Shown here piece by piece: positions 2,877-63,017 of a DNA stretch of 64,000 nt. The stretch spans positions 90,749,353-90,813,352 of the forward strand of contig NC_057718.1 in NCBI RefSeq assembly GCF_004010195.1, read 5' to 3'. The translations under genes and the position numbers were made by a program. The notes under the pieces are model-generated. The model had not been told where the DNA came from. It saw only the letters and a list, made by a program, of their open reading frames with translations, and ran no database searches. The number at the start of each line of letters is the position of its first letter. The stretch's first letter is position 1. This DNA is from Chiloscyllium plagiosum. Lineage: Eukaryota.

Positions 2877-3312
2877 GGATGTCCGCATCCACGAACATCA
2901 ACTAGCCACGAAACGACATGACCAGCTATCCCTAGTAGCCACACACGCAGACGACAAGCAACATGAATTTGACTGGGACAACACTACCATTATAGGGCAA
3001 GCGAAACAAAGAACAGCCAGGGAATTCCTAGAAGCATGACACTCATCCACAAACTCCATCAACAAACACATAGACCTGGACCCAATATACCGGCCACTAC
3101 AGTGGACAGCTGAAACTGACAACCGGAAGCGGCAGGGACAGGCCACTATAAACACCGGAGGAAACACCACAGAAGCGCTTCACAGGAGGCTCCCAAGCAC
3201 TGAGGATGTCACCTAGACAGGCGACGAAACGTTTGCAACAAAAACTTCCAGCTCGGCGAACAGAACCACAGCAACGAGCACCCGAGTTACAAATCTTCTC
3301 ACAAACTTTGAA
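2877..3312 (+). mobile_element. Penelope-like element (family C) 3' fragment: GIY-YIG C-terminus plus pLTR with hammerhead
   Basis: Peptide RIHEHQLATKRHDQLSLVATHADDKQHEFDWDNTTIIGQAKQRTAREFLEA*HSSTNSINKHIDLDPIY. 12-bp TSD taccttattcat at 2865-2876 and 3313-3324. Confidence 0.85.
3197..3236 (+). ncRNA. Minimal type-I hammerhead ribozyme motif (PLE family C)
   Basis: gca-CTGAGGA-t-gtcacct/agac/aggcgac-GAAAC-GTT-tgc: conserved core, stem II with one mismatch, gca/tgc stem I. Confidence 0.75.
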
Positions 3313-4159
3313 TACCTTATTCATAAAATATCTTTATATACTTACACAGTTTCTAACGCAGTTCTATAGCATATTAAGAAAACGAATAAACATCTGAGTT
3401 TTGCTCTATCCAGCAAACAAACCAGAGGCATCCCATACCTGTGCAAGATTACATTTACCTGTGAAGCATCGGGTGGGTCCTATAACTGAATAGGATCCCC
3501 AATTAACTTTGGCACAATGAGCCATGTAGGTTTCTCCTCTTCAAGTGCATTCAATGCATTACTTTGGAGTCCAACAGAATGAGAATTACTCTGCATTTGC
3601 TTTGTGTTCCGCCCGCTCTGACTGCCATCTGAAAATCTAAGACAGTGCAGTGACAATTCCTATGACAGCACTGTTGGTGACCAATGCCCTGGATTTTCCC
3701 ATTCTCAGCACAGGACTACATTGGGCTTATGATTGAAACAAGACCACAGGAAACTGAGAGGCAAATTAGAGAACACTGCAGCCAGTAGCTGTTACAACTT
3801 GTTACAAACAGCAAAGCCTAGCACAGTATGTTCAGTGTTGAAAATAATTGAGATTTATTTGCATAGAAAGGAAGATTAGTCACTATTCTTGACAATGAAG
3901 GAGTGTGGAATACCTACTGCATTTCAAAAGGCAAAACCATCTTGATTTCTCAATTTACTCAAGCAAATAATACTCATTGAGCAAACTAGTTATACCTTCA
4001 AATTATTAACATTCATGGAGTTTTTAAAATTCATTCAGGTGATTACTGGCTGGGCATGGATCTATTACCTAGCCATTGCTGTCCTTGAGAAAATGCTTTC
4101 AACCACTGTAGACCATTAGGTGACCTACAATGTTGTGAGGGAAGGAGTTCCAGGGTTTT

Positions 4160-4366
4160 GCAAAAATGAGGACTGCAGATGCTGGAGATCAGAGTCGAGA
4201 GTGTGGTGCTGGAAAAGCACAGCAGGTCAGGCAGCATCTGAGGAGCAGGAGAGTTGACGTTTTGAGCATAAGCTCTTCCTGATGAAGAGCCTGCGCTCAA
4301 AACATCTACTCTCCTGCTCCTCGGATGCTGCCTGACTAGCTGTGCTTTTCCAGTGCCACACTTTTT
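4160..4366. mobile_element. Inverted PLE pLTR mini-element (family A) with degenerate hammerheads
   Basis: Inverted arms gtgctggaaaagcacagc...gctgtgcttttccagtgc with central cctgatgaagagc. 15-bp TSD gagttccagg(g/a)tttt at 4145-4159 and 4367-4381. Confidence 0.8.
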
Positions 4367-4804
4367 GAGTTCCAGGATTTTCAACTAGCAACAAGGAAGG
4401 AACAGTGATATATTTTGGGAATTTGCAGACATTAGTGTTCTCACGTACCTGTTCCCCTTGTCCTTCTGAACGGTAGTGGTTGTAGGTTTGGAAGGTGCTG
4501 TCTAAGGTGCTACCTTAGTGAACTCCTGCAAAGCATTTTGTAGTTGGTATGCACAGCTGCTACTGAGCACTGGGGGTAGTGGAGGGAATGGATGTTTGTG
4601 GATGTGATGCCAATTGAGCATCCTGACTCATGCCCTGTGTGTGTGGTGGATAGGCTTTAGGGAGTAAAGGAGTGAGTTAGTTGCTGCAACTTCCTCACGT
4701 CTGACCTGCTGTTGTAGTCACAGTATTTTTATGGCTCATCTAGTTCAGTTTCTGATACATTATAAGCCCCCAGGATGCTGATAGTGGGGGATTCAATGGT
4801 AATG

Positions 4805-4971
4805 AGCTGAAAATGTGTTGCAGGAAAAGCGCAGCAGGTCAGGCAGCACCCAGGGAACAGGAGAATCGACGTTTCGGGCATAAGCCCTTCTTCAGGAATC
4901 TGCTGCGCTTTTCCAGCAACGCATTTTCAGCTCTGATCTCCAGCATCTGCAGACCTCAGTTTCTCCTCAAA
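4805..4971. mobile_element. Inverted PLE pLTR mini-element (family A) with intact minus-strand hammerhead (4861-4899)
   Basis: Reverse complement reads attc-CTGAAGA-a-gggc/ttat/gccc-GAAAC-GTC-gatt. Perfect 15-bp TSD gattcaatggtaatg at 4790-4804 and 4972-4986. Confidence 0.85.
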
Positions 4972-5928
4972 GATTCAATGGTAATGCCATTGAATGTCCA
5001 AGAGACAAGGGTTAGATTCTGTCTTGTTGGAGATGTTGGCTTGGTAATTGTGTGGCATGAATGCTACTGGCCATGTGTCAGCCCAACCGTAGATATTGGC
5101 TAAGTCTTGTTGCATTTTAGACATGGCCTGAGGGGTCATGGAGGGTGCTGAACATTGTGCAATCATCAGCAAGCAACCCCCCTTTTGACCTTATGGTGGA
5201 GGGAAGGTGAAGCAGCTGAAGATAGTTGAGCCCAGGGCACCACCCTGAGGAATTCCTGCAGAAATATCCTGGAGCTGAGATGACTGACCTCCAACAACCA
5301 TAACCATCTTGCGATTTGACAGGTATGACTGCACCAAGCGGAGAGTTTTCTCCCTGATTCCCATTGACATCAATTTTACGAGGGCTTCTTGATAGCTACA
5401 CTCAGTCAGATGTGACCTTGATGTTAAGTCCAATCACTCTCACCTCACCTTTGGAATCCAGTTCCTTTGTCCATGTTTGGACCAAGGCTGGAATGAGGTC
5501 AGGAGCTGAGTGGTTCTGGTGGAACCCAAACGGTGTCACTGAGCAGGTGCTGCTGGATAGCTGTGTTGATGACACCTTCCATTTGATGTTCAAGAGTAAA
5601 CTGATGGGGCGGTAATTGGCCAGGTTGGATTTGTCCTGCTTTTTGTGTACGGGAAGTACCCAGGAAATTTTCCACATTGTCGTGTAGGTGCCAATGTTGT
5701 AACTGTACTGGAAGAGCTTGGCTAGGGGAGCAGCAGGTTCTGGAGCACAAGCCTTCATTACTATTGCTGGAATGCTGTCAGGGCCCATTGTCTTTGCACT
5801 ATCCAGTGCCTCCCATTGTTATTTGCTATCATGTGGACTGAATTAAATTGTCTGGAGACTGGTATCTGGGATCTCTGGATGCAGCAGAAATGCATCATCT
5901 GCTTGACATGTCTGGCTGAAGAATGTTG

Positions 5929-6220
5929 TGGTAAGATGGCTCAGTGGTTAGCACTGCTGCCTCACAGTACCAGGAACCCAGATTCAATTCCAACCTTGGG
6001 CGACTGTCTGTGTGGAGTTTGCACATTCTCTCCATGTCTGCGTGAGTTTGCTCCAGTTTCCTCCCATTGTTCAAAGATGTGCAGGTTAGGTGAATTGGCC
6101 ATGCTAAATTGTCCAGAGTGTTCAGGGATGTGTAGGTTAGATGCATTAGTCAAGGGTGGGTGTGGGGTGATAGGGCGGATTGCTATTGTGTGGAGTTGTT
6201 GGGCTGTCGGGATTTTTTAA
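5929..6220 (+). mobile_element. HE1-type tRNA-derived SINE
   Basis: tggctcagtggttagcactgctgcctcacag A-box head and tgtgtggagtttgcacattctc core. Confidence 0.85.
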
Positions 6221-9064: not shown

Positions 9065-9139
9065 ACCATGTACATGTTCTACGCTCTGGCAATTGTCTGC
9101 GATGACTACTTTGTTCCTTCATTAGACAAAATCTGTGAG
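9065..9139 (+). CDS. slc24a3: Internal coding exon (75 bp, phase 0/0) of K+-dependent Na+/Ca2+ exchanger NCKX3-like: TMYMFYALAIVCDDYFVPSLDKICE
   Basis: Polypyrimidine tract plus CAG acceptor (tctttctcccacag), GTAGGT donor at 9140. The translation matches the NCKX motif YMFYALAIVCDDxFVPSLxKICE. The choice of slc24a3 over other paralogs is less certain than the family call. Confidence 0.93.
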
Positions 9140-9970: not shown

Positions 9971-10349
9971 AAAAGGTCACCTTGTATGTGCACCCTTCCG
10001 CCCTCCGGTGGGGATTATAAATACTACAGCACGACCTCAGACACAATGGGCAGGGCTTAATGGAACCTGGAGTCATCTTGCTCACTGCCTGGGAAAGCTC
10101 TTTTAGAGACTGCCCATCACATTAAGTCCTACCCAGACATTTAAGTGGACAGTAATTGGGTCATCTTCTGGATCAGAGAAGAGAGCTGAGAGCTGATGTC
10201 TCATCACCTAGAAGCTGCCAGCTCTGATGAAGAGTCACCTAGACGTCTGACCCGCTCTGATCTCCAGCATTCGTTGTTTTCAGTTCAGATTCCAATACCT
10301 GCAGTAATTTGCACCTATGTTAGAAGCTGCCTGGTTCACCATTTTACAA

Positions 10350-11212
10350 GATAAAAACAATGACTGCAGATGCTGGAAACCAGATTCTGGATTAGTGGTG
10401 CTGGAAGAGCACAGCAGTTCAGGCAGCACCCGAGGAGCAGCAAAATCGACTTTTCGGGCAAAAGCCCTTCATCAGGAATACAGGCAGAGAGCCTGAAGGG
10501 TGGAGAGATAAATGAGAGGAGGGTGGAGGTGAGGAGAAAGTAGCATAGAGTACAATAGGCGAGTGGGGGAGGGGATGAAGGTGATTGGTCAGGGAGGAGA
10601 GGGTGGAGTGGATAGGTGGAAAAGGAGATAGGCAGGTAGGACATGTCATGGGGACAGTGCTGAGCTGGAAGTTTGGAACGAGTGTGAGGTGGGGAAAGGG
10701 GAAATGAGGAAACTGTTGAAGTCCACATTGATGCCCTGGGNNNNNNNNNNNNNNNNNNNNNNNNNNNNNNNNNNNNNNNNNNNNNNNNNNNNNNNNNNNN
10801 NNNNNNNNNNNNNNNNNNNNNNNNNNNNNNNNNNNNNNNNNNNNNNNNNNNNNNNNNNNNNNNNNNNNNNNNNNNNNNNNNNNNNNNNNNNNNNNNNNNN
10901 NNNNNNNNNNNNNNNNNNNNNNNNNNNNNNNNNNNNNNNNNNNNNNNNNNNNNNNNNNNNGTAGTCACGGAGGGAACAGTCTTTGCGGAAGGCGGAAAGG
11001 GGTGGAGAGGGAAATATATCCCTTGTGGTGGGTTTTTTGGAGGTGTTGGAAATGTCGGCGGATGATTTGGTTTATGCGAAGGTTGCTAGGGTGGAAGGGG
11101 AGCACCAAGGGGGTTCTGTCCTTGTTACGGTTGGGGTCTGAGGGCGGAGGTGCGGGATGTGGATGAGATGCGTTGGAGGGTATCTTTAACCATGTGGGAA
11201 GGGAAATTGCGG
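10350..11212 (-). mobile_element. 5'-truncated Penelope-like element (family A) with hammerhead at 10441-10479; contains an assembly gap
   Basis: Minus-strand peptides NKDRTPLVLPFHPSNLRINQIIRRHFQHLQ (RT-EN linker) and QGINVDFNSFL (C-terminus). Perfect 14-bp TSD tcaccattttacaa at 10336-10349 and 11213-11226. Confidence 0.88.
10741..10960. other. Assembly gap (220 N)
   Basis: Run of N bases. Confidence 1.
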
Positions 11213-11779: not shown

Positions 11780-12262
11780 TGAATCAGTCATACAGCACGG
11801 AAATAGACCCTTCGGTCTAACTAGTCCATGCCGACCATGCTCCCAAATTAAATTAGTCCCACTTGCCTGCATTTGGCCCATTTCCTTCCAAAGCTTTCCT
11901 ACTGGTGTACTTATCCAAATGCCTTTCAAACATTGACATTGTACCTACATCCACGACTTCCTCTGGCAGTTCACTCCACATACGGACCACCCTCTGTGTA
12001 AAAACGTTGCCCCTTGTGACCTTTTCAAAACTTTTTCCTCTCACCTTAAAACTATGCACTCTAGTTTTGAACTCCCTCAACCTAGGGAAAAGACCAATGC
12101 TATTCACCTTATCTGTGCCCCTCATGATTTTATAAACCTCGACAAGGACACCCCTCAACCTCCTACGCTCCAGTGGAAATGGTCCCAGCCTATCCAGCCT
12201 CTCCTTATAATTCAAACCTTCCACTCTTGACAACATCCTGGTAAATCTTTTCTGAACCTTCA
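11780..12262 (-). mobile_element. HER1/CR1 LINE 3' fragment
   Basis: KVQKRFTRMLS...YKERLDRLG...RGVLVEVYKIMRG...FTQRVVRMWSELPEEVV. Confidence 0.88.
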
Positions 12263-12690
12263 TATCCAGGCTTGGACTGGAAGCGACAAGTAACATTCAT
12301 GCCATACAAGTGCCTACCAGTGACCATCTCCAGTAGAAGACAATCTAAACATCGCCCTTTGACATTCAATGGCATTACCATCACTGAATACCACACTGTC
12401 ACCATCCTAGGAGGTACCGTTGACCAGAAACTGATTTGAACTGGCCAAATAAGCACAGTGACTGCAAGAGCAGATTAGACGCTAGGAATCCTGCAGTGAG
12501 TAACCCACCTCCTGACTCGCCAAAGCCTGTCCATCATCTACAAGGCACAAGTCAGGAATGAGATAGAATATCCCCACCTGACTGGGTACAGCTCTGTCAA
12601 TACTCAAGAAGCTTGGCACCCTCCAGGACAAAGCAGTCTGCTTGATTGATACCATGTCCACAAACATGCATCACTGACAAAGAGTGAACA
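12263..12690 (+). mobile_element. CR1-like family 2 LINE fragment
   Basis: gtaacattcatgcca...gacattcaatggcattaccatc, reverse-homologous to 4980-5070. Confidence 0.75.
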
Positions 12691-14002
12691 ACATATGAAA
12701 AGAACATATGTTGTATAAATCTATTGAAAGCAGAGGAAAAATATGCAGAAGATTTTCACAAAAAGGCATACAAAATTATGCTACTTCAGATTTCAAACCC
12801 TTGCACGTGACTATTTACCACTGAGCTTGATGAGATAGGCTGGATGCTACATTTAACATTGAAACTCCTGTAACAGCGCCATCTAATTGTGTCACAGCCA
12901 AGCAGAACTGCAAGTGTGGATGTTTAACTGTTACATCTTCCATCATAAATGTTTTTAGGGTTTCTAAGGTTATCAGATCAGCCATAATCTGATTGATTGG
13001 TGAAGCAGATTCAATGGGCTGAGTGGCCTACGTGAGCTCCTACATCTTATGCTCTTAACAATTGAGCGTGTGCCAGGAATCCCTGGCCTGTCCCTGCCTC
13101 TACGTTCCAGTTGCACCCACAGAGCCCACAGCAGTGTGTACATATTATGCAGAATTATTTATATAGAACTGAGGCAGAAATCTGTCACCATATTTCAGCT
13201 GCTCCAGTGATTTTCAGTGATTTTTATTTTCTTCTGTCTTTTTATAAAAGAATGCAAAGAAACCAAGTCAGATATTGGAAAGCAGAGGAATCTACTGCCC
13301 AAATTGCAATTGACCTTTGAATTAATGACATTCAGACATTCAGTGTTCCCTGAAAGAAACATGCACCTACATTTCAGCAAGAGAGTCAAACATTTTAATT
13401 TAAACAACATAATGTTCTGGCCTTTATTAAAAATCACACCAGCTCTGCCATTCTGTACAGAGGCCCGCAGACAGATTGGTGGTCTACCCTCCCCCAATCG
13501 CAGTTAATGGAAAGGTCTTTCTGACTTTTTCCAATTTCTTTAATGTTAATTATGGCCCTGAAATGACGCTGTGTAATTCTTCAAAACAGCCTGAAATAAA
13601 TATTACTGTATTAGGCTTGCTGGAGTGCTTCAGTGAAACCCAGTGCAGGCAGGAGAAATAGAGCATCATCTTCCACTTAGAAATCTAACAGCCTTCCGCA
13701 CTCAATATCGAGTTTAACAGTTTCAGAGCGCAAACACCCCGATTCCTTGTCCTTAACCTACCCCCATACCCCAGGTCCTGTCATGAATGGATTGCATTCA
13801 GTGCAGACAATTTTATCTTCAAACTCGTTATAGTCCTCATTATCACCTCTCTTTTTCCCTGGCTGACCATCAACAATCCCTTTGTCTGCCTAACCATTTC
13901 TCGCTTTCTGTGGGCTCCCTCTCCACTTATTTGCTCACTTCTCTCCCACCCTCCCCCCTCACCCCCAATCCTTGTCATCAGCTTTTCCTTGCTGCTTTAA
14001 CT

Positions 14003-14455
14003 GATGATGTGGAGGTGCCAGTATTGGACAGGGATGGACAAAGTTAAAAAATCACACAACACCAGGCTATAGTCTCAACAGGTTTATTTGGAAGTACTAG
14101 CTTTCGGAGCGCTGCTCCTTCACCTAAGGGCGGCACGGTGGCTCAGTGGTTAGCACTACTACCTCACAGCACCAGCGTCCCAGGTTCAATTCCAGCCGTG
14201 GGCAACTGTCTGTGTGGAGTTTGCACATTCTCTGCATGGGTTTCCTCCTACAGTCCAAAGACGTGCAGGTTAGGTGAATTGGCCATATTAAATTGTCCAG
14301 AGTGTTAGTTGCATCAGTCAGAGGGAAATGGGCCTAGGAGGGTTACTCTTCGGAGGGTCGGTGTGGACTTGTTGCGCTGAAGGGCCTGTTTCCACACTGT
14401 AGGGAATAATCTAATCTATAGTTGGGACTATAACCTGGTGTTGTATGATTTTTAA
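14003..14455. mobile_element. PLE family B inverted mini-element interrupted by an HE1 SINE (14128-14418, +)
   Basis: aaagttaaaaaatcacacaacaccagg...ctagctttcggagcgctgctccttca (partial minus-strand hammerhead), then the SINE, then ggactataacctggtgttgtatgatttttaac. Confidence 0.75.
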
Positions 14456-14904
14456 CGCTAACTGCTAAAGAAGAAGTACAACACTCGAACGTTATCTCTG
14501 TTTTCCTCTCCACGATGCAGGCCGACTTGCTGGGTTTCAGATCTCCAGTCCCTGCAGTTGTTTGTTCGCTGTGACTGAAATAACTGGGTTAGTGCCTCCA
14601 GTAAGACAGCAGAGAGAAGATTATCAGGGGAGATGCTGTGCATCCTGATGTAATCCAGCAGCATTAAGCTGTGCCCAGAACTCACTGGGATGTAAGACAA
14701 TCAGCAGCGCTGTGTGCAAACCAGTGTGTCGCCCATTTTGCTCATCGCTTTTTACAGAAAAACTGCCAAAGCCTCTTGCCCCCGGTTTATCCTCTGCCTA
14801 CAGATGTATGTCACTTCTCTTTTCCAGCAGCCCTTCAATAGCCAGCAGTATCCTTACTCAGCTCCATAGAGGGACAGCATTTCACAGCTAGGCAATGTTC
14901 GTTT

Positions 14905-17110: not shown

Positions 17111-17305
17111 TGGAGATGCCGGTTTTGGACTGGGGTGTACAAAGTTAAAAATCACACAACACCAGGTTGTAGTCCAACAGGTTTAATTGGAAGCACTAGC
17201 TTTCAGAGCACTGCCAACCACCTGATGAAGGAGCGTCGCTCCGAAAGCTAGTGTGCTTCCAATTAAACCTGTTGGACTATAACCTGGTGTTGTGTGATTT
17301 TTAAC
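17111..17305. mobile_element. PLE family B inverted pLTR mini-element
   Basis: Long inverted arms (agttaaaaatcacacaacaccagg...cctggtgttgtgtgatttttaact). Imperfect 13-bp TSD tatgttccgcata/tatgtttcacata. Confidence 0.82.
17219..17253 (+). ncRNA. Intact minimal hammerhead motif (PLE family B)
   Basis: cac-CTGATGA-a-ggagc/gtc/gctcc-GAAAG-CTA-gtg, with cac/gtg stem I and palindromic AGCT at the stem III position. Confidence 0.8.
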
Positions 17306-17724
17306 TATGTTTCACATAAGTTTCTTTATGCACTACCTGAGCCAACGCTGTCAACGCACCCTTGTTTTCGGTCTGTTTTCGCAGAATTGGCTAATTACTC
17401 AAGGCCAATTTCTTACATTGGTTTATAGAAAACAGTATGGACAATGTTTAGTGTCTCACTGTTTAGATGCTGGTTTGTGTTGCTTCCCTTCACTTTAAAT
17501 GATAGCTCAGCTGCTGTTGGCTCTGAGTTGAGCCTGTTGCTAACCTTAAGCATTTCATTTCTGGTGGGGCTGTAGGTCAATTGAAAAATCAAAATCTGGA
17601 ATATGTAGTTTTTTTTTAATGTAAGGATTTACAGAACCAAGGAGGATAGACGGAGTTACATTACAGATCAGGCATGATCTAACTGAAGGGCAGAACAAGA
17701 TTGTGGACTCCTCCTGTTCCCGTC

Positions 17725-19787: not shown

Positions 19788-20274
19788 CACTTAATGAAGC
19801 AAAGAACTGTGGGTGCTGGAAATCTGAAACAAAAACAGAAAGTGCTAGAGAAATTCAGCAGGTCTGAAGTGAGAAAAGCAGAGTTAACATTTCGTGTCAG
19901 GTTCTGAAGGACCATCACTGGACTCAATGTCAACTGTTTCTCTTTCTATCGATGCTGTCAGGCAGACGTATTATCTGGAGGTGATCAATAAATACAAGTT
20001 ACATTTATGGAACCATACTATTGTGTGCGGGAGACTGCGTTCTCCTACACGCAAACTGTGTTTCCAGGACAAAAGTATTTAATTAGCTTGAAGCCCTTTG
20101 GCTCACAGTTGGGAATGTGGAAGGCCTTATGTACAGAAATGCAGCATTTTCTACCTCCTGACACAAGATGTCACCGATTCTCTAAACCAAACTTATTTCA
20201 CTGAACCTGTTTCCAAATCTGGCAGGCACACCTGCTGGCAGGAAAAGGATATTTTCATTTCAACTTTAACTGGG

Positions 20275-20395: not shown

Positions 20396-20580
20396 AACTA
20401 ACATCTCTGAACTGATGATTGAGGAAAATGACTAGATATTCCATTCAAGAACATAATCCAAGGACACACTGTGACTACAGGTGGTCCTGTAGCACAGTGG
20501 TAATGTCACTACCTCACGACTTTATTTCATTTACCTCTTCGTGAAGAGCTCAGTCGCAGCAAAGACATCGGTGGCAGCAA

Positions 20581-24368: not shown

Positions 24369-24838
24369 CTGTTTTGTCTTTTTTCCCCCCCTGTGTTTTA
24401 AGAGATTGGCCACACTCTACAACACTTTTCAGTGTGTGCTGAAACACGATACACATGGCAATAAATAAATCAAATCAAATCTTGGCTAAGGTTCAAGTCA
24501 CTTGTGCTCTGGAGGAGAATCTCTGAACAGGTTAATTAGAAAATATTTTCCAACTTTGAGTGCAGGGCTGTTGTGCTGCAGTGTTTTTGTCCATATCTCT
24601 GAGCCAGGAGGCCTGGGTTCAGTTCCCATCTGTTGTGGACATGTGTTATAACAGCTTATTGAGAAAGTGGATTAATGAGTCCATTAATGAATTTGGAAAT
24701 GTGAGCATGCTGCCTGGATCTCAGTCCAGCTCCAACTGAGGGGGTAAAAGGTTACCACACTCCGTCTGTATGGACCGTACGTCTCGGTGGCATTTAATTC
24801 GGCAATCCCAAACGAATGACTCAATGTTTATTAATACA

Positions 24839-24965
24839 GGAGAAAGTGAGGACTACAGATGCTGGAGATCAGAGCTGAAAAACGTGTTGCTGGAAAAGCG
24901 CAGCAGGTCAGGCAGCATCTAAGGAGCAGGAGAATTGACGTTTCGGGCATAAGCCCTTCTTCAGG
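24839..24965 (-). mobile_element. Solo PLE pLTR tail (family A) with intact hammerhead core
   Basis: Reverse complement attc-CTGAAGA-agggcttatgccc-GAAAC-GTC. 16-bp TSD aatgtttattaataca at 24823-24838 and 24966-24981. Confidence 0.85.
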
Positions 24966-25169
24966 AATGTTTATTAATACAAACAATTTATGATTTTCTG
25001 TGTATTAAACTTAAATATTGTGAACATGGTGTTATCCCCAACATTTCCTGAAACCTCACAATTCTCACTTCATTGCATTATGACTCATCAAGTAAATAGG
25101 AAAATAAGTTTAACAGAGAGCTGAGTGTTAAGCAATTAAATAAAACCTGAGGAATCTTACTTTGCACTA

Positions 25170-25490
25170 ATTTTTTTTATTCATTCATGGGATGTGGACA
25201 TCACTGACTAGGTAAAAAGGGCTTTTGCCCGAAACGTCGATTTTGCCTGTCCTCGGATGCTGCCTGAATTGCTGTGCTCTTCCAGCACCACTGATCCATC
25301 ACTGACTAGGCCAACATTTATTGCCCATCCCTAATTCCCCAGATGGCAGTTAAGAGACAGTCACATTGCCAGAAGAGGTAGGGATGACAGTTTCCCTCCC
25401 TAAGGAATATTAGTGAACCAGATGGAGTTTTCTGACAATTGACAATGGATTCATGGTCATTATTAGTTCCAGATTTTTAAAATCCAAGCC
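25170..25490 (-). mobile_element. SINE family 2 with a nested PLE family A mini-insertion (25213-25296)
   Basis: 14-bp TSD catcactgactagg at 25199-25212 and 25297-25310 around gggcttttgcccgaaacgtc. Confidence 0.8.
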
Positions 25491-26210: not shown

Positions 26211-27158
26211 GTAAGAACAGGAAGTGGCTTTACGTGGACTGACTGTGCTTGTCCTGCCTACTGTAATATGGGGGACAGGTTAGGGATGAGCCGAAAGGAG
26301 ATGCTTCGTTTTACTGCTAACCCTCCGCCTTCAAATATATATGTGGAAGCAGCCATAAAACCCATGCAAAAAGGAGGTTCCCAAGAAAAGTCAAAAGACA
26401 TTAACTTGGTTTCTCTCTCTGCACAGATATTGTGAGACGTGCTGAGTTGCTCCAGTTTTTATTTCGGATCTTCAGCATCCGCAGTATTTTGTTTTGGCTC
26501 TTGTTGAGCAAGGTAACTGTTTGGTTTCTGTTGCATTCTGAAAAAATACATCGCTCCTTTTTCAGAGGTTTGCAGTTGTTTTCAGTGTCTGCTTGGTTAA
26601 ATCATTGTGGGACAGATTGTTGAGTTTATCAGGGAGCTCAGCAATTGGATTGCTTGGAGCAACACTATTAACCCACGAGATATGATTCCTCTCCAGCTGT
26701 TAGGTAGGATAAATGCCTTTGTCTCATTACTAGGCATTAAAACAAATCTCAAAGAGACCTGTTTCCCATTTGTTTGACACAGTCTGCAAGTTGTATCACC
26801 CCCATGTGAAATCATCATAATGACATTAAGTAACCTCTTCCATGTCCCTGGAATTTTAAAGAAATGTTTGACGATGCATTTTCTTTCCTGGCATTATCCC
26901 TTTAAGCAACCTTTTGCTACAGCTTCTAATGAATTCACATCAAAAAACACAGATCCAGCCATATTTATATCTGGCTCAAAAAGGAAACATCCAGTGCTAG
27001 TATTACAAGTGGGATTGTGGAAGGAGATTAAATTGGGAATACGGACCGACTGCCAGGTCAGCATAATGAGCATCAGTTCAGGATGGGTAAACACTATTGG
27101 TAATTGTCATGGTGATGACTGACCATGACTGTTTCTTACTGTGCTTTCTCTTCTGCAG

Positions 27159-27243
27159 CGCCTACACCTCAGTGAAGACGTGGCCGGAGCTACATTCATG
27201 GCAGCTGGAAGCTCAGCCCCTGAGCTCTTCACCTCCATCATAG
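27159..27243 (+). CDS. slc24a3: Internal coding exon (85 bp, phase 0/1) of NCKX3-like, alpha-1 repeat: [28 protein letters not shown](G)
   Basis: ttctcttctgcag acceptor and GTAACT donor at 27244. Contains the alpha-1 signature [16 protein letters not shown] and is in frame with the previous exon. Confidence 0.95.
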
Positions 27244-31549: not shown

Positions 31550-32410
31550 ATAGAAACATTGAAAATAGGAACAGGAATAGGCCATTCAAGGTTGCTCTGC
31601 CATTCGATATGATGGTGGCTTGTCATCAACTTAATATGGTGTTTCTTTCCTCAGATCCCTAAGATCTTGATCCCTTTAGCCAGGAGAACTATAACTAACT
31701 GCTTCTTGAAAACTTCAAATGTTGTGACCTTAACTGTTTTGTGTGGCAGAGAATTCCCCAGGCTCACCACTCTCTGGGTGAAGAAATCTGTCCTCATCTC
31801 AATCCTGGATGACCTTCCCGATATCCTTAGACTGTTGGCTCTGGTCATTAGGAACACCTTTCCGGCATTTATGGTGCCTAGTCCTTTGAGAACTTTATAG
31901 GTTTCTATGAGAATGCCCCATCATTATTCGAATGTAGTCCGAACCAATCCAATCTCTCTTCTTATTTCAGTCATGCCATCCCAGGTAGGTAAAAACAATG
32001 ACTGCAGATGCTGGAAACCAGATTCTGGATTAGTGGTGCTGGAAGAGCACAGCAGTTCAGGCAGCATCTGAGGAGCAGTAAAATCGACATTTCGGGCAAA
32101 AGCCCTTCATCAGGGCTTTTGATGAAGGGCTTTTGCCCGAAACGTTGATTTCGCTGCTCCTCGGATGCTGCCTGAACTGTTGTGCTCTTCCAGCACCACT
32201 AATCCATCCCAGGAATCAGTCTGGTAAGCCTCTGTTTATTCCCTCCATAGCCAGAACATCCTTCCTCTGATAAGGAAACCAAAACTGCATATGTTACTCC
32301 AAGGCTGGTCTCAGCAAGGCCCTGTATGAATGCAGCAAGACATCTCAACCCTTTTACCCAAATCCTCCCAATATTAAGGACAACATACCATACTTCCTTA
32401 CCACCTACAT
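31550..32410 (-). mobile_element. CR1 3' fragment hosting an inverted PLE mini-element
   Basis: FFTQRVVSLGNSLP peptide. Confidence 0.78.
31986..32203. mobile_element. Inverted PLE pLTR mini-element (family A) with back-to-back hammerhead motifs
   Basis: tttcgggcaaaagcccttcatcagg / tgatgaagggcttttgcccgaaacgtt. 10-bp TSD ccatcccagg at 31976-31985 and 32204-32213. Confidence 0.85.
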
Positions 32411-34897: not shown

Positions 34898-35001
34898 GAG
34901 TGTTCATCACAAAGGGGGATGTCGGGGTCGGAACGATTGTGGGCTCTGCAGTATTCAACATTCTCTGCATTATTGGAGTGTGTGGGCTTTTCTCAGGACT
35001 G
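34898..35001 (+). CDS. slc24a3: Internal coding exon (104 bp, phase 1/0) of NCKX3-like: (G)[34 protein letters not shown]
   Basis: ccctttctatttctcag acceptor and GTAAGC donor at 35002. The G|GA split codon joins it to the previous exon. Contains the [12 protein letters not shown] motif. Confidence 0.95.
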
Positions 35002-35576
35002 GTAAGCAAACCTTTCCACAGCCATCCATAAAGTATTGCACTGTAGTCAATGAGTGGCATCCAAGTTCTGAAGCTCCTGGGCACATGGACACCTCATTGG
35101 CAATTGTTTGGGTGGCATGCCCTGGCACCAAGTACTATAAAAGGGCCAACACTAGGAAACGACTGAGACTGCTGTTCCATTTGATATTTAACGTCCAAGC
35201 ATAGATAAAAGAGCTTCTATTTCTCTCCCTTTCTAGAGGATGAGGAGGCAACATATGTACTATTGGCTTGTTCGTTGCGAATAATGACAATGTGAAAAGG
35301 AACAGCAAATCCACCACTGTTTCCCCAGTAATGTTCACAATATGTTAAAGCAATCTGGACTCTAGATCAAAGCTGTCACTGATTGAACTCAGAAGTGTTT
35401 TAAAATCAAGAGACGCCAGGCAGGATTCACACTAGATGGAGCGAATGCTTACCTTATGTTCAGTATTAACAACTGCCAGCATTTCAGTGGAAGTTGGAGA
35501 TATTGCCATCACATTGGACTGCAGATCTGCCTGTCAGAACCTTGGAAGTCCCCAGCTAGGTTAACTTAATTTGGTG

Positions 35577-35798
35577 AAAGTGAGAACTTCAGATGCTGGA
35601 GATTAGAGTTGAGAGTGTGCTGTTGGGAAAGCACAGCAGTACAGGCAGCATCCGAGGAGCAGGAGAATTGACGTTGCGGGCAAAAGGTCTTCATCAGGAA
35701 TGAGGATGAAGAGCTCTTGCCCAAAACATTGATTCTCCTGCTCCTCAGATGCTGCCTGACCTGTTGTGCTTTTCCAGCACCACACTCTTGACTCTAAT
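35577..35798. mobile_element. Inverted PLE mini-element (family A), degenerate
   Basis: Inverted arms around cttcatcaggaatgaggatgaagagc, flanked by atttggtg repeats. Confidence 0.8.
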
Positions 35799-35859
35799 TT
35801 TATTTGGTGCCGAACCTCCCCTAAGCTGAGCAAATTTCACATTTGGAAGTTGCTTGGAT

Positions 35860-39239: not shown

Positions 39240-39417
39240 ATTGGATCTGGAGATGAAATGTGACAATTTGTACCTCTATGTAACCTAAACCTTTCATCTG
39301 ACAGGGTAAAAATATCACATCCTGAGATTGCACTGGATGTGATATTTTTACCCTGTCAGATGAAAGGTTTAGGTTACATAGAGGTACAAATTGTCACATT
39401 CCATCTCCAGAACCAAT
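39240..39417. repeat. Long inverted repeat: 66-bp perfect arms (39257-39322 / 39335-39400), 12-nt spacer, extending to 83 bp with 2 mismatches
   Basis: Checked base by base as reverse complements. Confidence 0.97.
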
Positions 39418-39944
39418 ACAATCTATTTAGAACATTCAGGGATTTGTGTCGGTAACAGGAGTTGCAAATCAAGGAGACCAGATTTGATAGGCCCAGGCAC
39501 CGGCATGAGATTTAAAAGGCACCTATTGATTGAAATGCAGGTACCTTATCAATTTCATGCGGCCTGTTCATTCCAATGATTTCGGCATGCGGCCAACACT
39601 AATTGCATTGTTAATTGGCTGGATGCAACAGAAGTAGGTGAAAACCATGAGCGCTGAGCACCACTTAAAGCTAACCTGCATCCCTTTAGGGGTCCATCAT
39701 AGTTAGAAAGGTCAGTGTCTCAGATCTGTGCTGCATGAAGAGGTGACACAGCAGTGGAGGGAGTGAACTCAAGGTTTTCAGTGCCCTGCTCTAGCATTGC
39801 ACTTGCGGCTCCAGCAGTTGAAAAGTGTCAGCGAGGATGTCCTTACTGAAGTGTCCGACATTGCGCATGTTGTTCTTCAGTGAGTTAGGAGAACTGTCCT
39901 CTGCACAACCAAAGTGGCAGGGGCTACGGCTCAGAGCTTTAATT

Positions 39945-40112
39945 TCTCTACCTACTCCCTCTTCCAACAGCCTGCCCCGCCCTTCCTATTATCTCTCAGG
40001 TCCCTTGGGCCACCTCACATTCCTGACGAAGAGCTTATGCTCAAAGCATCAACTCTCCTGCTCTTCGGATGCTGCCTGACCGGCTGTGCTTTTCCAGCAC
40101 CACACTTTTTGA
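39945..40112 (+). mobile_element. PLE family A 3' end with degenerate hammerhead
   Basis: cattcctgacgaagagcttatgctcaaagcatc...gctgtgcttttccagcaccacac. Confidence 0.75.
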
Positions 40113-40364
40113 CCCTGTTCTGTGTTGATCTTCTTGTTTCTCCAAGCTGCCCTGTTCAGCTGTGGCAGAAATGGCAGGGAGCAATTGGGTCATGCATAAA
40201 TTTTGAAGTCTGTAAAAATCCCTTCAGCACATGCCACGCCATGCCCCTGTTGACCATGGCATTTTGAAACAACTAAAAAAAAAAGCACAAATCGCCAAAA
40301 CAGCAGCTGAAAAAAAAATCAATCTTAACATTTGACCTACATCCAGGATTTCGCCATCGAGTGA

Positions 40365-41489: not shown

Positions 41490-42860
41490 AGCTATAGAGG
41501 AATACAGCACAGAAATAAACCCTTCAGCCCAATTCATCTTTGCTGACCAGGTTTCCTCAGCTGAACTAGTCCCAGTTGCCTGTGTTTGGCCCATATCCCT
41601 CTAAACCTTTCCTATTCATGTATCTGTCCAATTGTACCCTCCTCAACCACATCATCTGGCAGCTCGTTCCCTTCATGCATTACCCTCTGCATGAAAAGGT
41701 TGCCCCTTAGGTCTTTTTAAAATATTTCCCCCTCACCTTAAACCGACGCCCTCATGACCTGTCTTGCCTGTCCGCACTCATGACTTGTGCCTTTTTCCTT
41801 CCCACCTATCTGCTCCAACCTCCTGTCCGACCTATCACCATTACCCCTACCTCCACCCACCTATCGCACTCTCAGCTACCTTCTCCCCCAGCCCCCCCAC
41901 CCCCCCCCCCTCTAATATATCTCTCTACCCACTAAGCTCACAAGCTTCATTCCTGATGAAGGGCTCTTGCCCGAAACATCAATTCTCCTGCTCCTCAGAT
42001 GCTGCCTGACCTGCTGTGCTTTTCCAGCACCACACTCTCGACTCTTAAACCTATCCTCTCTAGTTTTGCACTCCCCTACGCTGAGGATAAGACTTTGGTT
42101 AGTCACCTTATCGATGTCCTCATGGTTTTATAAATCTCTACAAGGTCACCCCTCAGCCTCCTACGCACCAGGGAAAAAAGTCCCTGCCTTTCCTCATAGC
42201 TCAAACATTCCATTCTCGATACCATCATTGTAAATATTTTTTGCACCCTTTTCACTTTAATAACATTCCCCCTATAGCAGGGTGACCAGAATTGTTGCAG
42301 TATGCCAAATGCGACCTTACCAATGTCTTGTACAGCTGTAACATGTCATCCTAACTCCTGTCCATAATGCTCTGATGAAGACAAGCATGCCAAATGCCTT
42401 CCTCAACCCCTGGTCCATACTTGACACCACTTTCAGGGATCTATGTACCTGCATCACTAGGTCTCTCTGTTTGACAACAATCCCCAGGCCCCTACCATTA
42501 ACTGTGTAAGACCTCCCCAGTTTTGCTTCACCAAAATGCAAAACCTCACATTTATCTGAATGAGACTCCACCTGCCAATCCTCGGCCCACTGGCCTAGTT
42601 GAAAAAAGATGTGGTTGTCTTAGATAACCTTCTTCACCACACCACCAATTTTTGGCTTCATCTGCAAACGTACGAACCATATCTCCTATATTCTCATCCA
42701 AATTATTTATATAAATGGCAAACAACTGTGGGCCCACCACTGAGCCTTGCAACACACCTGTGGTCACAGGCCTTCAGTGTGAACAACAACCCTCTACCAA
42801 TACCCTCTGTCTCCTACTGTCCAGCCAATTTTGTATCCAATTATGTCAGTTTCCATGAGA
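41490..42860 (-). mobile_element. HER1/CR1 LINE fragment with a nested plus-strand PLE 3' end (41755-42045)
   Basis: TTGVLQGSVVGPQLFAIYINNLD...FADE and DKCEVLHFG. The nested element has cctgatgaagggctcttgcccgaaacatc. Confidence 0.85.
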
Positions 42861-44999: not shown

Positions 45000-45455
45000 G
45001 GCACTGGCCAGGTGGTATTACTGTAAGACTATTAATCCAGAAACTCAGCTAATGGTCTAGGGAGCTGGGTTCAAATCCAACTGTGGCAATTGATGGAATT
45101 TGAATTCAGTAAAGAATGTAGAATTAAGAGTCGACTGATGAAGCCCATAGTCAAGATTAGAGTGGTGCTGGAAAAGCACAGCAGTTCGGGTAGCATCTGA
45201 AGAGCAGGAAAATTGATGTTTCGGGCAAAAGCCCTTCAACAGGAATGATGAAGCCCATAGCTGATTGTCAGAAAGACCTAGCTGGTTCACTAAGATCCTT
45301 TAGGGAAGGAAATCTGCCATCCTTATCTGGTCTGGCCTACATGTGACTCCATACCCACAGCAATGTGATTGACTCTTAACTGCTCTCGGGGCAATTAGGG
45401 ATGGGCAATAAATACTGGCCAAGATAGAGAAGCCCACATCCCGTGAATGAATAAC
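45000..45455 (+). mobile_element. tRNA SINE family 2 (tail shared with CR1 family 2) with a nested PLE solo tail (45151-45245, -)
   Basis: gggttcaaatcc B-box and ggcaattagggatgggcaataaa tail. 15-bp TSD tgatgaagcccatag at 45136-45150 and 45246-45260. Confidence 0.85.
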
Positions 45456-48489: not shown

Positions 48490-49035
48490 TTAGAGTCCTA
48501 CAGTAAGGAAACAGACCCTTCGGTCCAACTAGTCCATGCCAACCATAAACCCAATCTCAGCTAGACCCACCTGCCCGCACTTGGCCCATATCCCTCCAAA
48601 CCTTTTCCTACTCATGTACTTATCCAAATGTAACTGTACCCACATCCACCTCTTCCTCTGGGAGTTCATACTACACACAAGCCACTCTCTGTCCCTCATG
48701 TCTTCTTTCAACCTTTCTCCTCTCACCTTAAAAATATGCCCCCGGTCTTGAAATCCCTCATCCTAGGGAAAAGGCATTTGCCATTCACCTCATCTATGCC
48801 CCTCATGACTTTATAAACCTCTATAAGGTCACCCCTTAATCTCTTACGCTCCAGTGAAAAAGTCCCAGTCTATCCATGATTTGGAGATGCCGGTGTTGGA
48901 CTGGGGTGTACAAAGTTAAAAATCACACAACACCAGTCTATCCAGTCTCTCTTTATAACTCAAAGCCTCTGTTACTGGCAACAACCTGGTAAATCATTTC
49001 TGAACCCTCTCCAGTTTAAAGATATGCTCCCTATA
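48490..49035 (-). mobile_element. HER1 LINE 3' end with a 56-bp PLE family B tail insertion (48877-48932)
   Basis: 12-bp TSD ccagtctatcca at 48865-48876 and 48933-48944. Confidence 0.85.
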
Positions 49036-49585: not shown

Positions 49586-49600
49586 TCAAATCTTTTTTTA

Positions 49601-50304: not shown

Positions 50305-50884
50305 TAAGGACATACAAAACAGGAGCAGATGTTGACCATTTAATCCCTTGGGCTGCATTGACATTAAAACAATCATGGCTGATCTCCTTCTTCAACTGCA
50401 CTTTCCTGCCCCCTCCCCACAACCTATCGTCGCCTGACGGAGGAGCAGTGCTCTGAAAGCTTGTGACTTTGAATAAACTTGTTGGACTATAACCTGGTGT
50501 CGTGCAACTTCTGACTTTGTCCATCCCAGACCAACTCCGGCGTCTCCACATCTTAAATATATTCAACAATGGTACATGCACAACTGTCCCAGAAATTCCT
50601 GAGGTGCACAGCTCTCTGAGTAGAGAGGTTGCCCATCTCGGTCCTAAATTAGCCACAAGACCCCGCACCTGTATTTCAGATTCCCTTGGCAGGGGAAGCA
50701 ACCTCTCAGCTTCCAGCCTGTCAAACCCTTGCTGAACCTTGTCCGTTTCAGTGAGGTCACCTCTCATTCTTCTAAACTACAGAGGCTCGATTTACAAAAC
50801 CAGTCATCAACGGGCAGCCCTCTCACTGGGGAACTCGCATCGTGAACCTTTGCTGTATTATCTCCAAGACAAGCATGTCCTCCT
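50305..50884 (-). mobile_element. Old CR1 3' fragment with a nested PLE family B tail (50430-50552, +)
   Basis: RGDLTETDKV peptide and cgcctgacggaggagcagtgctctgaaagcttgtg (degenerate hammerhead). Confidence 0.72.
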
Positions 50885-51495
50885 AGGAAAAAGTGAGGAC
50901 TGCAGATGCTGGAGATCAGAGCTGAAAAATGTGTTGCTGGAAAAGCGCAGCAGGTCAGGCAATATCCAAGGAGCAGGAGAATCGACGTTTCAGGCATAAG
51001 CCCTTCTTCAGGAATGAGGAAGGTGTGTCAAGCAGGCTAAGATAAAAGGTAGGGAGGAGGGACTTTGGAAAAGGGCGTTGGGAATGCGATAGGTGGAAGG
51101 AGGTTAAGGTGAGGGTGATATGCCGGAGAGGGGGTGGGGGCGGAGAGGTCGGGAAGAAGATTGCAGGTCAAGAAGGCGGTGCTGAGTCCGAGGGTTGGGA
51201 CTGAGATAGGTGGGGGGAGGGGAAATGAGGAAGCTGGAGGAATCTGCATTCATCCCTTGTGGTTAGAGGGTTCCTAGGCAGAAGATGAGGCGCTCTTCCT
51301 CCAGGCGTCGTGTTGCCATGGTCTGGCGATGGAGGAGGCCAAGGACCTGCATGTCCTTGGCAGAGTGGGAGGGGGAGTTAAAGTATTCAGCCACGGGGCG
51401 GTTGGGTTGGTTGGTGCGGGTGTCCCAGAGGTGGCCTCCTCTACATTGGGGAGACAGGCCGCCTACTTGCAGAACGTTTCAGAGAACACCTCTGG
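50885..51495 (-). mobile_element. Penelope-like element (family A) 3' end with an inverted 5' segment
   Basis: Minus strand LWDTRTNQPNRPVAEYFNSPSHSAKDMQVLGLLH...RRLEEERLIFCLGTL*PQGMN. Plus strand GLLYIGETGRLLAERFREHLW at 51433-51495. Hammerhead at 50978-51015. Confidence 0.88.
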
Positions 51496-55720: not shown

Positions 55721-55974
55721 TCAAAATCCTGAGGCAGTTGAGGTGTTTCTGTGAATGTTGCATGCCCCTATTAGCGTTCTTCCCAGGCAACCACGAATAA
55801 AATCAACAACTCAACAATAGAGACTTGAACTTAAGACTCTGTGTCCAGATCATGAATGGAGTTGGAATCCAAAATCATCAACTCAGATTAATTCTATCAT
55901 CAAGGAGCGTCCTACTGTTTATAATTTAAAGTGAGGCGGCCTTTTTTTTCCTGTTGTCTGCAGTGTGTTTGTCC

Positions 55975-58689: not shown

Positions 58690-59102
58690 CCCATCGAAAG
58701 ATTCCAGAACAAGCTCTCTGTTCTGAACTTTGTCATTGAAAGCTGTTCTCCAGAAAGGAAGAGAAAACACTTCATGGACGTTCTCTAAACCTCAGTGAAA
58801 GAAAAAAGCAACCCTCCCTCCCCACCTCTGTTGACTCTTAGGAATCTCAAGCCCAAGACTGACCAATTTGGAGAAGAAGCAGCCACCAAGTTTGCCAGCG
58901 GATTGGATCATCTCCAACAAGCCCTGGTGGATTCCAGGAGCAAGCAGCAAAAGGAGGATGCAGAAATTCAGGCACCCTACTGACCCACCTCACCAAACAC
59001 GTCCTACCCCTCTCCTGTCGCAGGATATGAGGGTTCGATATTAGATACACAACAGCGAAGGAGAAGCAAGCCATCTTCGTTCCCAAGGGACTATCGAAGA
59101 GA
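58690..59102 (+). mobile_element. Decayed RTE-clade LINE 3' end
   Basis: Tail gaagcaagccatcttcgttcccaagggactatcgaagag and a remnant C-terminal CxRIxG motif. Confidence 0.5.
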
Positions 59103-61174: not shown

Positions 61175-61562
61175 CAGACACACACACACTCGCACCACAC
61201 ACCCTCACATATTCTCTCACACACATATACACTAACATCATACACCCACACACACACACTCGCACCACCACCCTCACACATTCTCACACACACATACAAC
61301 AATAACACTCACCCACACACACACACTTGCACCACACACCCTCACACATTCTCACACACACAACTAACGGCAACACACTGACACCCACACACGCTAACAC
61401 CCACCTGCACACATACTAACACCCAAACAACCACACAGACTTGCACCCACACACTCACACCTACATGCAGTACCACCAACACACCCACACACTAACACGC
61501 ACACCATCACACACTCCTAACACCACACACACTCACAGCTACACACCCACACACACCCACAT
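61175..61562. repeat. CA-rich cryptic microsatellite with a ~70-bp higher-order unit repeated about 3 times
   Basis: cacact(c/t)gcacca..caccctcaca.attctc recurs at about 61185, 61255 and 61323. Confidence 0.9.
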
Positions 61563-61614
61563 CTCAGATCTATTGATTCCAATACTATTACATTGAAGTA
61601 GACAGTCTGCTTCA

Positions 61615-62135
61615 GTCATAGAGTTTTACAGCACGGAAACAGACCCTTCAGTCCATCTCAGCCATGCTGACCAGATATCCCACATTACTCTAGTCCCATT
61701 GGCCAGCATTTGGCCATATCCCTCTGATCTTTCCTATTCATGTACCCATCCAGATGCCTTTTAAATGCTGTAATTGTACCAGCCTCCACCACTTCCTCTG
61801 GCAGCTCATTCCATGCATGTGCCACCCTCTACAGAAAAAAGTTGCACCTTATGTCTCTCTTAAATCTTTCCCCTCTCACCTTAAACCTATGCCCTCTAGT
61901 TTTGGACTCCACCAATCCTGGGAAAAAGACCACAGCTATAACCCTCCATAAGGTCACCCCTCAGCCTCCAACGTTCCGGGGAAAACAGCCCCAGCCTATT
62001 CAGCCTCACCCTATAGCTGAAACCCTCCTACCTTGGCAACATCCTTGTAAATATTTTATGAAACCTTTCAAGTTTCACATCATCTTTCCTGTAGCAGGGA
62101 GAGCAGAAGTGAATACAGTATTCCAAAAGTAGTCC
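61615..62135 (-). mobile_element. HER1/CR1 LINE 3' end
   Basis: Reverse-homologous to 7570-7945. Confidence 0.85.
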
Positions 62136-62315
62136 ATTCATGCATTCTGTTCACCCCCATTATATCAGAACTGAAGGCAAGCATGAAGCTGCTTCTGCAA
62201 GTACCTACATGAGGCTTTTCCTTGATTTATTTCTCATCTTTAACAAAGAAAAGACCATGAGACACTGGGGAGAGGTATAACCCAACGCATACCTTGCCCC
62301 TAAAGGTAATGAGTC

Positions 62316-62508
62316 GATGGTGTGGTGTTGGAAGAACACAGCAGGACAGGCAGCATCCGAGGAGCAGGAGAATCAACCTTTCGGACATTAGCTCTTCATC
62401 AGGAGAATTGACGTTTCAAGCATAAGTTCCTCGGATGCTGCCTGACCTGCTGTGCTTTCCAGCACCACACTCTATTCTGAGCTCCAGCATTTGCAGTCCT
62501 CACTTTCT
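62316..62508. mobile_element. Rearranged inverted PLE mini-element (family A)
   Basis: Imperfect 17-bp TSD cctaaaggt(a/g)atga(g/t)tc at 62299-62315 and 62509-62525. Confidence 0.75.
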
Positions 62509-62769
62509 CCTAAAGGTGATGATTCTACCAAAGCACCACAAGTGTCCTTGCTCCCTGTTGTACACTTAATCTCATCCACAGAAGGTGGGTATATACCTTC
62601 ATCATAGAACCACTGAACAGTTACAGCACAAGAGACCATTCAGCCCAACAAGTCCAGGACTGCATTTTGAATCGAAACCACTATTGCATAAAAATGCTTC
62701 TCCTCATGTTGCCATTGCTGAAGGTCAATACAAAGTCCTCAAGCCCAGATAGGACATATAGTCAGACAG

Positions 62770-63017
62770 GTAAAAACAATGACTGCAGATGCTGGAAACC
62801 AGAGTTTAGGTTAGAGTGGTGCTGGAAAAGTACAGTAGTTCAGGCAGCAACCGAGGAGCAGTACAATCGACGTTTCGAGAAAAAGCCCTTCATCAGGAAT
62901 ACTGATGGAGTTTAACGGTATTCCTGATGAAGGGCTTTTGCCCGAAACGTCGATTTTACTGCTCCTCGGATGCTACCTGAACTGCTGTGCTTTTCCAGCA
63001 CCACTAATCCAGACTAG
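62770..63017. mobile_element. Inverted PLE pLTR mini-element (family A) with two back-to-back hammerheads
   Basis: Plus-strand intact CTGATGA-a-gggc/tttt/gccc-GAAAC-GTC at 62924-62951. TSD agtcagacag at 62760-62769 and 63018-63027. Confidence 0.87.

What the first reader, a model, noticed from the sequence alone, without database searches (positions are those of the whole stretch)
3197..63017. Introns seeded with minimal hammerhead ribozymes from three Penelope-like families
Seen in sequence: about 15 or more copies of CUGANGA-N-[stem II]-GAAA-S-SUH in three sequence-unrelated contexts. Family A (gggc/tttt/gccc, GAAAC-GUC) has intact cores at 4861-4899(-), 24930-24968(-) and 62924-62951(+). 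Family B (ggagc/gtc/gctcc, GAAAG-CUA) is intact at 17219-17253(+). Family C (gtcacct/aggcgac, GAAAC-GUU) is at 3197-3236(+). The core is conserved while stem II covaries, and each has a palindrome (ACGU or AGCU) where helix III should be. Families A and C are physically joined to GIY-YIG coding remnants (2877-3312, 10350-11212, 50885-51495). Established: Penelope-like elements carry minimal type-I hammerheads that lack a stable helix III and are proposed to cleave as dimers. Inference: this genome has very high-copy, mostly non-coding ribozyme-bearing PLE derivatives, and plus-oriented copies would be transcribed in the NCKX pre-mRNA. Family B is assigned to PLEs only by architecture, since no coding part is in the window.
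Basis: partly seen in the sequence, partly recalled or inferred. Interest (0 to 1): 0.72.

Follow-up and report, generated by a model that had tools for sequence, protein, structure and literature searches.

The report
Shark Penelope remnants with minimal hammerheads
The introns of this shark calcium-exchanger gene are littered with short, mostly decayed end-pieces of Penelope-like jumping genes that carry a tiny self-cutting-RNA (hammerhead) motif; the motifs are real but of a kind described in 2014, and nothing here shows that they cut the host transcript.

Summary
The motifs are real: a strict minimal-hammerhead descriptor finds 6 intact cores (5 with helix I; 0 in 12 shuffles), plus about 20 decayed or cut copies, all inside a shark SLC24A3/NCKX3 gene. 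Family C is joined to a Penelope/Poseidon-type endonuclease end, family A to Neptune-type coding remnants; family B has no coding link but shows the same insertion signature (head-to-head pair, one arm about 30 nt longer, 12-bp target duplication). They match the published min-HHR consensus of Penelope-like elements. Two of three intact sense-strand cores are buried in long hairpins, so cleavage of the pre-mRNA is unlikely. One extra pattern: 14 of 20 family-A arms start at the upstream edge of the ribozyme and none at its cut site, so uncleaved RNA was the template. The scan has reported this same system many times in other windows of this genome. Verdict: new members of a known kind; low interest.

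The parts
2877..3312 (+). Family C insertion: 5'-truncated Penelope/Poseidon-type PLE end (endonuclease C-terminal half 2881-3213 with one in-frame stop, min-HHR C3 at 3200 to U17 at 3233, tail); 12-bp target duplication 2865-2876 / 3313-3324
   Evidence: tblastn 92% over 111 aa to P0002; strict descriptor; TSD
4160..4366 (.). Family A head-to-head pair; both cores damaged (G12 to A in both); long arm on -, short arm on +; 15-bp TSD with 1 mismatch
4805..4971 (-). Family A pair: short arm on - with intact min-HHR 4868-4895, long arm on + cut downstream of the ribozyme; 15-bp TSD
9065..9139 (+). SLC24A3/NCKX3 exon (aa 123-147 of P0021)
   Evidence: tblastn 100%
10220..10320 (+). Fourth family (D): decayed min-HHR with internal deletion, tail; 11-bp TSD
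10350..11212 (-). Family A insertion with Neptune-type coding remnant (RT-endonuclease interval 11214-10964; N gap 10741-10960), pyrimidine-rich 3' UTR, min-HHR 10448-10475 (C15.2 to A), long tail; 14-bp TSD spans the whole unit
   Evidence: tblastn to P0014
13575..14565 (+). Old family-D element: faint endonuclease end 13575-13715, 3' UTR, decayed ribozyme near 14465-14500, split by the family-B insertion
   Evidence: tblastn E 9e-4, profile iE 0.42, sequence; weak
14006..14456 (.). Family B head-to-head pair (long arm 14006-14126 on -, cut inside the core; short arm 14419-14456 on +), interrupted by an unrelated repeat 14127-14418
17111..17306 (+). Family B head-to-head pair: intact min-HHR 17222-17250 on + (short arm), long arm on - cut inside stem II; probable 12-bp TSD with 2 CpG-type changes
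19800..19990 (.). Family D decayed inverted pair
24838..24968 (-). Family A solo copy, core intact 24937-24964 but G1.1 to A breaks the first pair of helix I; long tail; 15-bp TSD
25216..25298 (+). Family A solo copy cut inside the core (no CUGANG); short tail; 14-bp TSD
26380..26495 (+). Family D decayed copy
27159..27243 (+). SLC24A3/NCKX3 exon (aa 147-176 of P0021)
   Evidence: tblastn 97%
31986..32206 (.). Family A head-to-head pair (C3 at 32113 on -, C15.2 to U; + arm lacks C3); 10-bp TSD
34898..35001 (+). SLC24A3/NCKX3 exon (aa 176-211 of P0021)
35574..35800 (.). Family A head-to-head pair, both cores damaged
39951..40120 (+). Family A solo copy with part of the upstream UTR; three core defects
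41788..42048 (+). Family A solo copy with upstream UTR; G16.2 to A and G1.1 to A
45151..45250 (-). Family A solo copy, two core defects; 15-bp TSD
48877..48932 (-). Family B tail-only insertion; 12-bp TSD
50433..50553 (+). Family B diverged solo copy, A9 to G, long tail
50884..51495 (-). Family A insertion: Neptune-type endonuclease end 51433-51254 (one in-frame stop), inverted piece 51421-51495 with the YIG motif, 3' UTR, intact min-HHR 50984-51011, long tail
   Evidence: tblastn 85% and 84% to P0014
62311..62510 (.). Family A three-piece rearranged pair (C3 at 62402 on -, damaged); 14-bp TSD with 1 mismatch
62768..63017 (.). Family A head-to-head pair: intact min-HHR 62924-62951 on + (short arm); - arm (C3 62896) with intact core but damaged stem II and long tail; both arms start 6 nt before C3; 10-bp TSD

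Best explanation
These are dead-on-arrival, 5'-truncated insertions of the terminal module (pseudo-LTR plus 'tail') of endonuclease-bearing Penelope-like retrotransposons from at least four families: C (Penelope/Poseidon type), A and D (Neptune type) and B (PLE by architecture). The ribozyme belongs to the parent element. Shown here: the element's endonuclease made staggered cuts (10-15-bp target duplications); copying began at one of two fixed 3' sites about 35 nt apart; copies often sit head to head with one long and one short arm; most stop at the upstream edge of the ribozyme; afterwards they decayed, fastest at CpG. Inferred, from the anole PLE biochemistry: a protein that nicks and extends both target strands primes one arm from each of two internal start sites on uncleaved RNA, and the two cDNA ends join by microhomology. 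The motifs were selected in active parent elements, where they probably cut slowly as dimers or with protein help; the intronic copies are passengers and most likely do not cut the NCKX3 pre-mRNA to any extent that matters.
For: Strict descriptor 5 hits against 0 in 12 shuffles. A, B and C all fit the published consensus CUGANGAH-G..C-GAAAN-palindrome-NUH with a U-rich upstream flank (PMC4209133 supplement). Coding links: 92% over 111 aa to P0002, an RT-bearing protein; 85% over 60 aa and 57-96% over three linker pieces to P0014; 79 of the 88 proteins with a GIY-YIG-like motif among the 163 tested have the CX2-5CxxC linker, which P0002, P0006 and P0011 lack. TSDs of 10-15 bp with at most 1 mismatch at 12 of 19 units. 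3' ends of 17 family-A arms fall in two groups, +84 to +99 (10) and +121 to +129 (7); 8 of 8 scored inverted pairs have one long and one short arm, as described for PLEs (PMC8557442, PMC3846280, PMC11167929). Decay: core intact in 5 of 17 arms; G12 changed in 4 of 17, palindrome cells in 8 of 34, tail CpG cells in 16 of 51. Stem II pairing probability 0.0 in all 5 + strand arms that lie in hairpins.
Against: Non-CpG core cells are somewhat better kept than tail cells (4/160 against 44/714, p=0.08; 8/177 against 80/816, p=0.03 when subfamily-diagnostic tail columns are kept), which leaves room for weak constraint or reflects selection in the parent elements. Family B has no coding link in the window or in three collection scans. 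Clade names rest on linker motifs and best hits, not on a tree. Pfam GIY-YIG hits on the homologues are below the curated cut-off (E 0.005-0.03). No RNA data and no whole genome were examined.
Confidence: 0.88

Rival explanations
1. The short copies are a dedicated non-autonomous, SINE-like class: a 95-130-nt RNA that begins 4-6 nt upstream of the hammerhead core is made from the pLTR promoter and copied in full by PLE protein in trans. This refines rather than replaces the best explanation.
For: 14 of 20 family-A arms start between -10 and +10 of C3 and none at the cut site (+28); binomial p below 1e-10 for exponential truncation with any mean from 30 to 300 nt. Five start exactly at -4 or -6, which are pyrimidine-purine steps in the long copies, and both arms of 62768-63017 start at -6. 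Penelope of D. virilis has an internal promoter in its pLTR (PMC2377424).
Against: Starts were judged by eye, spread over 17 nt, and overlap microhomologies with the target; 4 of 20 arms run further upstream and 2 start downstream. RT stalling at the folded ribozyme, or joining through the element's own short inverted repeat around the core start, would give the same pattern. No RNA 5' ends were seen.
Confidence: 0.3
2. Sense-strand copies are active ribozymes that cut the NCKX3 pre-mRNA (as dimers between distant copies or with protein help) and affect its processing, as proposed for the conserved intronic hammerheads of amniotes.
For: Three intact cores lie on the transcribed strand (3200, 17222, 62924). 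At 3200 stem II forms with probability about 0.5. Conserved intronic type-I HHRs exist in amniotes (PMC6155905 passages).
Against: 17222 and 62924 lie in hairpins of -123.8 and -163.2 kcal/mol (z -16.9 and -20.0). No intact, solo family-A copy lies on + (0 of 3 solo + copies). 3200 is the only family-C copy in the window, helix I probability 0.06-0.21. Published min-HHR monomers show no cleavage and dimers little (PMC4209133); the anole HHR needs its protein and left no RNA-seq ends (PMC11167929).
Confidence: 0.05
3. Family B is not a PLE derivative but a foldback DNA element (MITE-like) or SINE whose hammerhead-like core is incidental.
For: No coding sequence is joined to any of the 4 family-B loci; Rfam gives only sub-threshold hairpin matches at 17181-17268.
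Against: Its pairs are asymmetric (one arm about 30 nt longer), solo and tail-only copies exist with a 12-bp TSD, the 5' ends fall at the core as in family A, and the motif meets every position of the min-HHR consensus, with G-C-U-H at 15.2-17 also seen in published examples.
Confidence: 0.07

Closest known systems
Minimal hammerheads (min-HHR) in the pLTRs of metazoan Penelope-like elements (Cervera and De la Pena 2014, PMC4209133)
   Same: Type-I core, extra nucleotide between 9 and 10.1, G10.1-C11.1 pair, palindromic 15.2-16.2, no helix III, short helix I, U-rich upstream flank; mostly solo copies, some in close opposite-strand pairs, few attached to ORFs.
   Different: No shark is among the terms found in the searched supplement. 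Density is far higher: 6 strict hits in 63.8 kb extrapolates to about 94,000 per Gb (95% range 35,000-205,000, one window only) against about 4,000 (coelacanth) and 9,000 (Xenopus tropicalis) per genome. Family A has a very short helix I (2 bp, a U-U mismatch, 1 bp) and a 4-bp stem II.
Insertion units of endonuclease-positive PLEs (Penelope/Poseidon and Neptune clades; PMC8557442, PMC3846280, PMC11167929)
   Same: Strong 5' truncation, adjacent inverted truncated copy, optional 30-40-bp tail on one end only, target duplications, palindromic junctions, C-terminal GIY-YIG endonuclease.
   Different: Here the unit is mostly reduced to 90-250 bp, and 5' ends pile up at the upstream edge of the ribozyme, which I did not find stated in the passages read.
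Non-LTR retrozymes of animals (bioRxiv 10.64898/2026.07.22.740005)
   Same: Non-coding PLE pLTR derivatives with type-I HHR; reported in one chondrichthyan.
   Different: Retrozymes are head-to-tail tandem arrays; no tandem array of these units occurs in the window.
Ultraconserved intronic type-I hammerheads of amniotes (RECK and others; review PMC6155905)
   Same: Intronic position, type-I topology.
   Different: Those are single conserved loci; these are high-copy, decaying repeats on both strands.

Membership tests
PLE min-HHR | Core CUGANGA ... GAAA ... UH around a stem II | tested here: met
   6 strict hits in three families; 0 in 12 shuffles for the version with helix I
PLE min-HHR | Extra nucleotide after A9 and G10.1-C11.1 pair | tested here: met
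   17 of 17 family-A arms have the extra A and G10.1, 16 of 17 C11.1; also B and C
PLE min-HHR | No helix III; palindromic 15.1-16.1 | tested here: met
   ACGU in A and C, AGCU in B
PLE min-HHR | Short helix I (2-5 bp) | tested here: met
   2 bp plus a further pair in A, 3 bp in B and C; broken in 7 of 15 family-A rows at the first pair
PLE min-HHR | Covariation of stem II within a family | tested here: inconclusive
   Pair 10.2-11.2 is G-C in 10, A-U in 3, A-C in 3, G-U in 1 of 17; score 0.127, reached by 147 of 500 shuffles on 15 rows
PLE min-HHR | Self-cleavage as dimer or with protein | not testable with these tools
   Double-hammerhead folds can be drawn (-9.5 to -18.3 kcal/mol) but lie 5-15 kcal/mol above the best predicted dimers; such energies do not decide activity
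Endonuclease-positive PLE (families A, C) | Ribozyme downstream of an ORF with RT and C-terminal GIY-YIG endonuclease | tested here: met
   Colinear remnants matching P0002, P0011, P0014
Endonuclease-positive PLE (family B) | Ribozyme downstream of an RT/GIY-YIG ORF | tested here: inconclusive
   No coding remnant at 4 loci; 0 matches in two metagenome scans and one viral scan
Endonuclease-positive PLE (A, B) | Inverted truncated copy and a 30-40-bp tail on one end only | tested here: met
   8 of 8 scored pairs; two 3' end classes about 35 nt apart
Endonuclease-positive PLE (A, B, C, D) | Target-site duplication | tested here: met
   12 of 19 units clear, 1 probable, 1 doubtful, 5 none
Neptune/Nematis-type PLE (family A) | CX2-5CxxC finger between RT and endonuclease; placement by RT tree | tested here: inconclusive
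   Finger present in 79 of 88 motif-bearing proteins; P0014 shows only CxxC; in the window that part lies in the N gap; no tree built
Penelope/Poseidon-type PLE (family C) | No finger in the linker; placement by RT tree | tested here: inconclusive
   P0002, P0006, P0011 lack the finger; no tree built
Non-LTR retrozyme | Head-to-tail tandem units each with an HHR | tested here: not met
   All multi-copy loci are inverted; none tandem
Domesticated intronic HHR | Core under constraint at the locus and conserved across species | tested here: inconclusive
   Core not significantly better kept than tail at non-CpG sites (p=0.08); orthologous loci not examined

The most novel reading that the evidence does not exclude
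In this shark lineage most PLE insertions are complete copies of a 95-130-nt RNA whose capped 5' end lies 4-6 nt upstream of the hammerhead core. The ribozyme then sits at the very head of the PLE transcript (which would explain its stubby helix I), only uncleaved RNA is ever copied, and cleavage would act as a decapping off-switch rather than as processing for transposition. One protein dimer priming from the two internal start sites would make each head-to-head pair in a single event, leaving on the order of 100,000 intact-looking ribozyme motifs per gigabase and many 70-100-bp intronic hairpins.
Probability: 0.25. Interest if true: 0.5.

Novelty: new member of a known kind. Interest (0 to 1): 0.17.

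Why it matters
As a ribozyme finding it adds shark families to a class known since 2014 and gives no sign of a host role. Its value is as material: what PLE hammerheads do is still open (PMC8557442 says so; the anole element does not need cleavage for insertion in vitro), and a genome with this many TSD-bounded copies offers a large fossil record of where reverse transcription starts and stops. The two fixed 3' ends and the one-long-one-short pairs mirror the two start sites measured in vitro for the anole element, here in a Neptune-type family; the pile-up of 5' ends at the ribozyme's upstream edge is directly testable by 5'-end sequencing.

Tried and rejected
Rfam: 6 matches at E up to 1, none a hammerhead family, all below gathering score; the curated models need helix III, so this is no evidence against. 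Pfam on the three window fragments: no GIY-YIG hit, because the pieces lack most of the domain. No whole genome is held, so no genome-wide count or consensus. DNA patterns for family B: 0 matches in metagenome contigs twice and viral contigs once. tblastn of 163 PLE-like proteins and two profiles against the window found no coding piece next to family B; the faint endonuclease remnant at 13575-13715 belongs to an older element that B inserted into. Sequencing runs: no RNA holder listed; no reads were laid, so expression and RNA ends are untested. Covariation count on 15 family-A rows did not exceed shuffles. Dimer energies were uninformative. The C3200 pairing values used a wrong stem span and were redone; the B17108 duplication was printed one base off and is read. 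One 33-nt fragment (62400-62432) was dropped from the column counts (17 of 18 arms). A splice-acceptor reading (pyrimidine tract and AG 16-25 nt upstream of C3 in 4 of 4 long family-A copies) was considered; no arm starts at those AGs, so it does not explain the 5' ends. Lunse et al. (PMC5785218) is not held; I saw only its title in a reference list. Look-ups of earlier findings by sequence and by nearness returned nothing.

Full report
Setting. The window is 64,000 bases, 44% GC, with one 220-N gap at 10741-10960. No whole genome is held. The best protein matches to its retroelement remnants are from the bamboo shark Chiloscyllium punctatum at 84-95% identity, so it is shark DNA. Three consecutive exons of SLC24A3/NCKX3 lie on + at 9065-9139, 27159-27243 and 34898-35001 (97-100% to the white-shark protein P0021, against 62-90% to the NCKX4 protein P0053); residues 1-122 and 212-655 have no match in the window, so the whole window is most likely inside the gene and every element discussed is intronic.

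Noticed in passing
window 20580-23374: GC-rich tandem array, about 111 copies of a 26-bp unit (77% matches) with a 50-bp higher period, in the intron between the first two NCKX3 exons; it produces long spurious ORFs.
   Followed up: partly
window 39233-39424: A 192-bp near-perfect palindrome (93%) with no hammerhead motif and no other copy in the window; looks like a foldback DNA element.
   Followed up: no
   Followed up: partly
window 13575-14565: Three-level nesting: an old family-D element is split just upstream of its ribozyme by a family-B pair, which is itself split by another repeat (14127-14418).
   Followed up: partly
window 10475, 40023, 41953, 51011 (upstream flanks): All 4 long family-A copies have a pyrimidine tract ending in AG 16-25 nt upstream of C3, like a splice acceptor; in D. 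virilis Penelope an intron ends at helix I of the ribozyme (PMC4209133). Could be chance in a pyrimidine-rich flank.
   Followed up: partly
P0001, P0007, P0008, P0012: Several annotated shark proteins (a MAP3K7 isoform, a 5'-nucleotidase-domain protein, CUEDC2) end in family-C endonuclease sequence at 74-95% identity: either gene-model read-in or real exonisation of this PLE.
   Followed up: no
window 10741-10960: The 220-N gap is shorter than the roughly 370 nt of coding sequence expected between the flanking matches to P0014, so the gap size is underestimated or the copy has a deletion.
   Followed up: no
window, many places (for example 11853-12296, 28662-28838, 63271-63653): Numerous LINE 3'-end fragments (matches to P0013) and about a dozen copies of a 300-bp repeat make up much of the remaining repeat content.
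   Followed up: no
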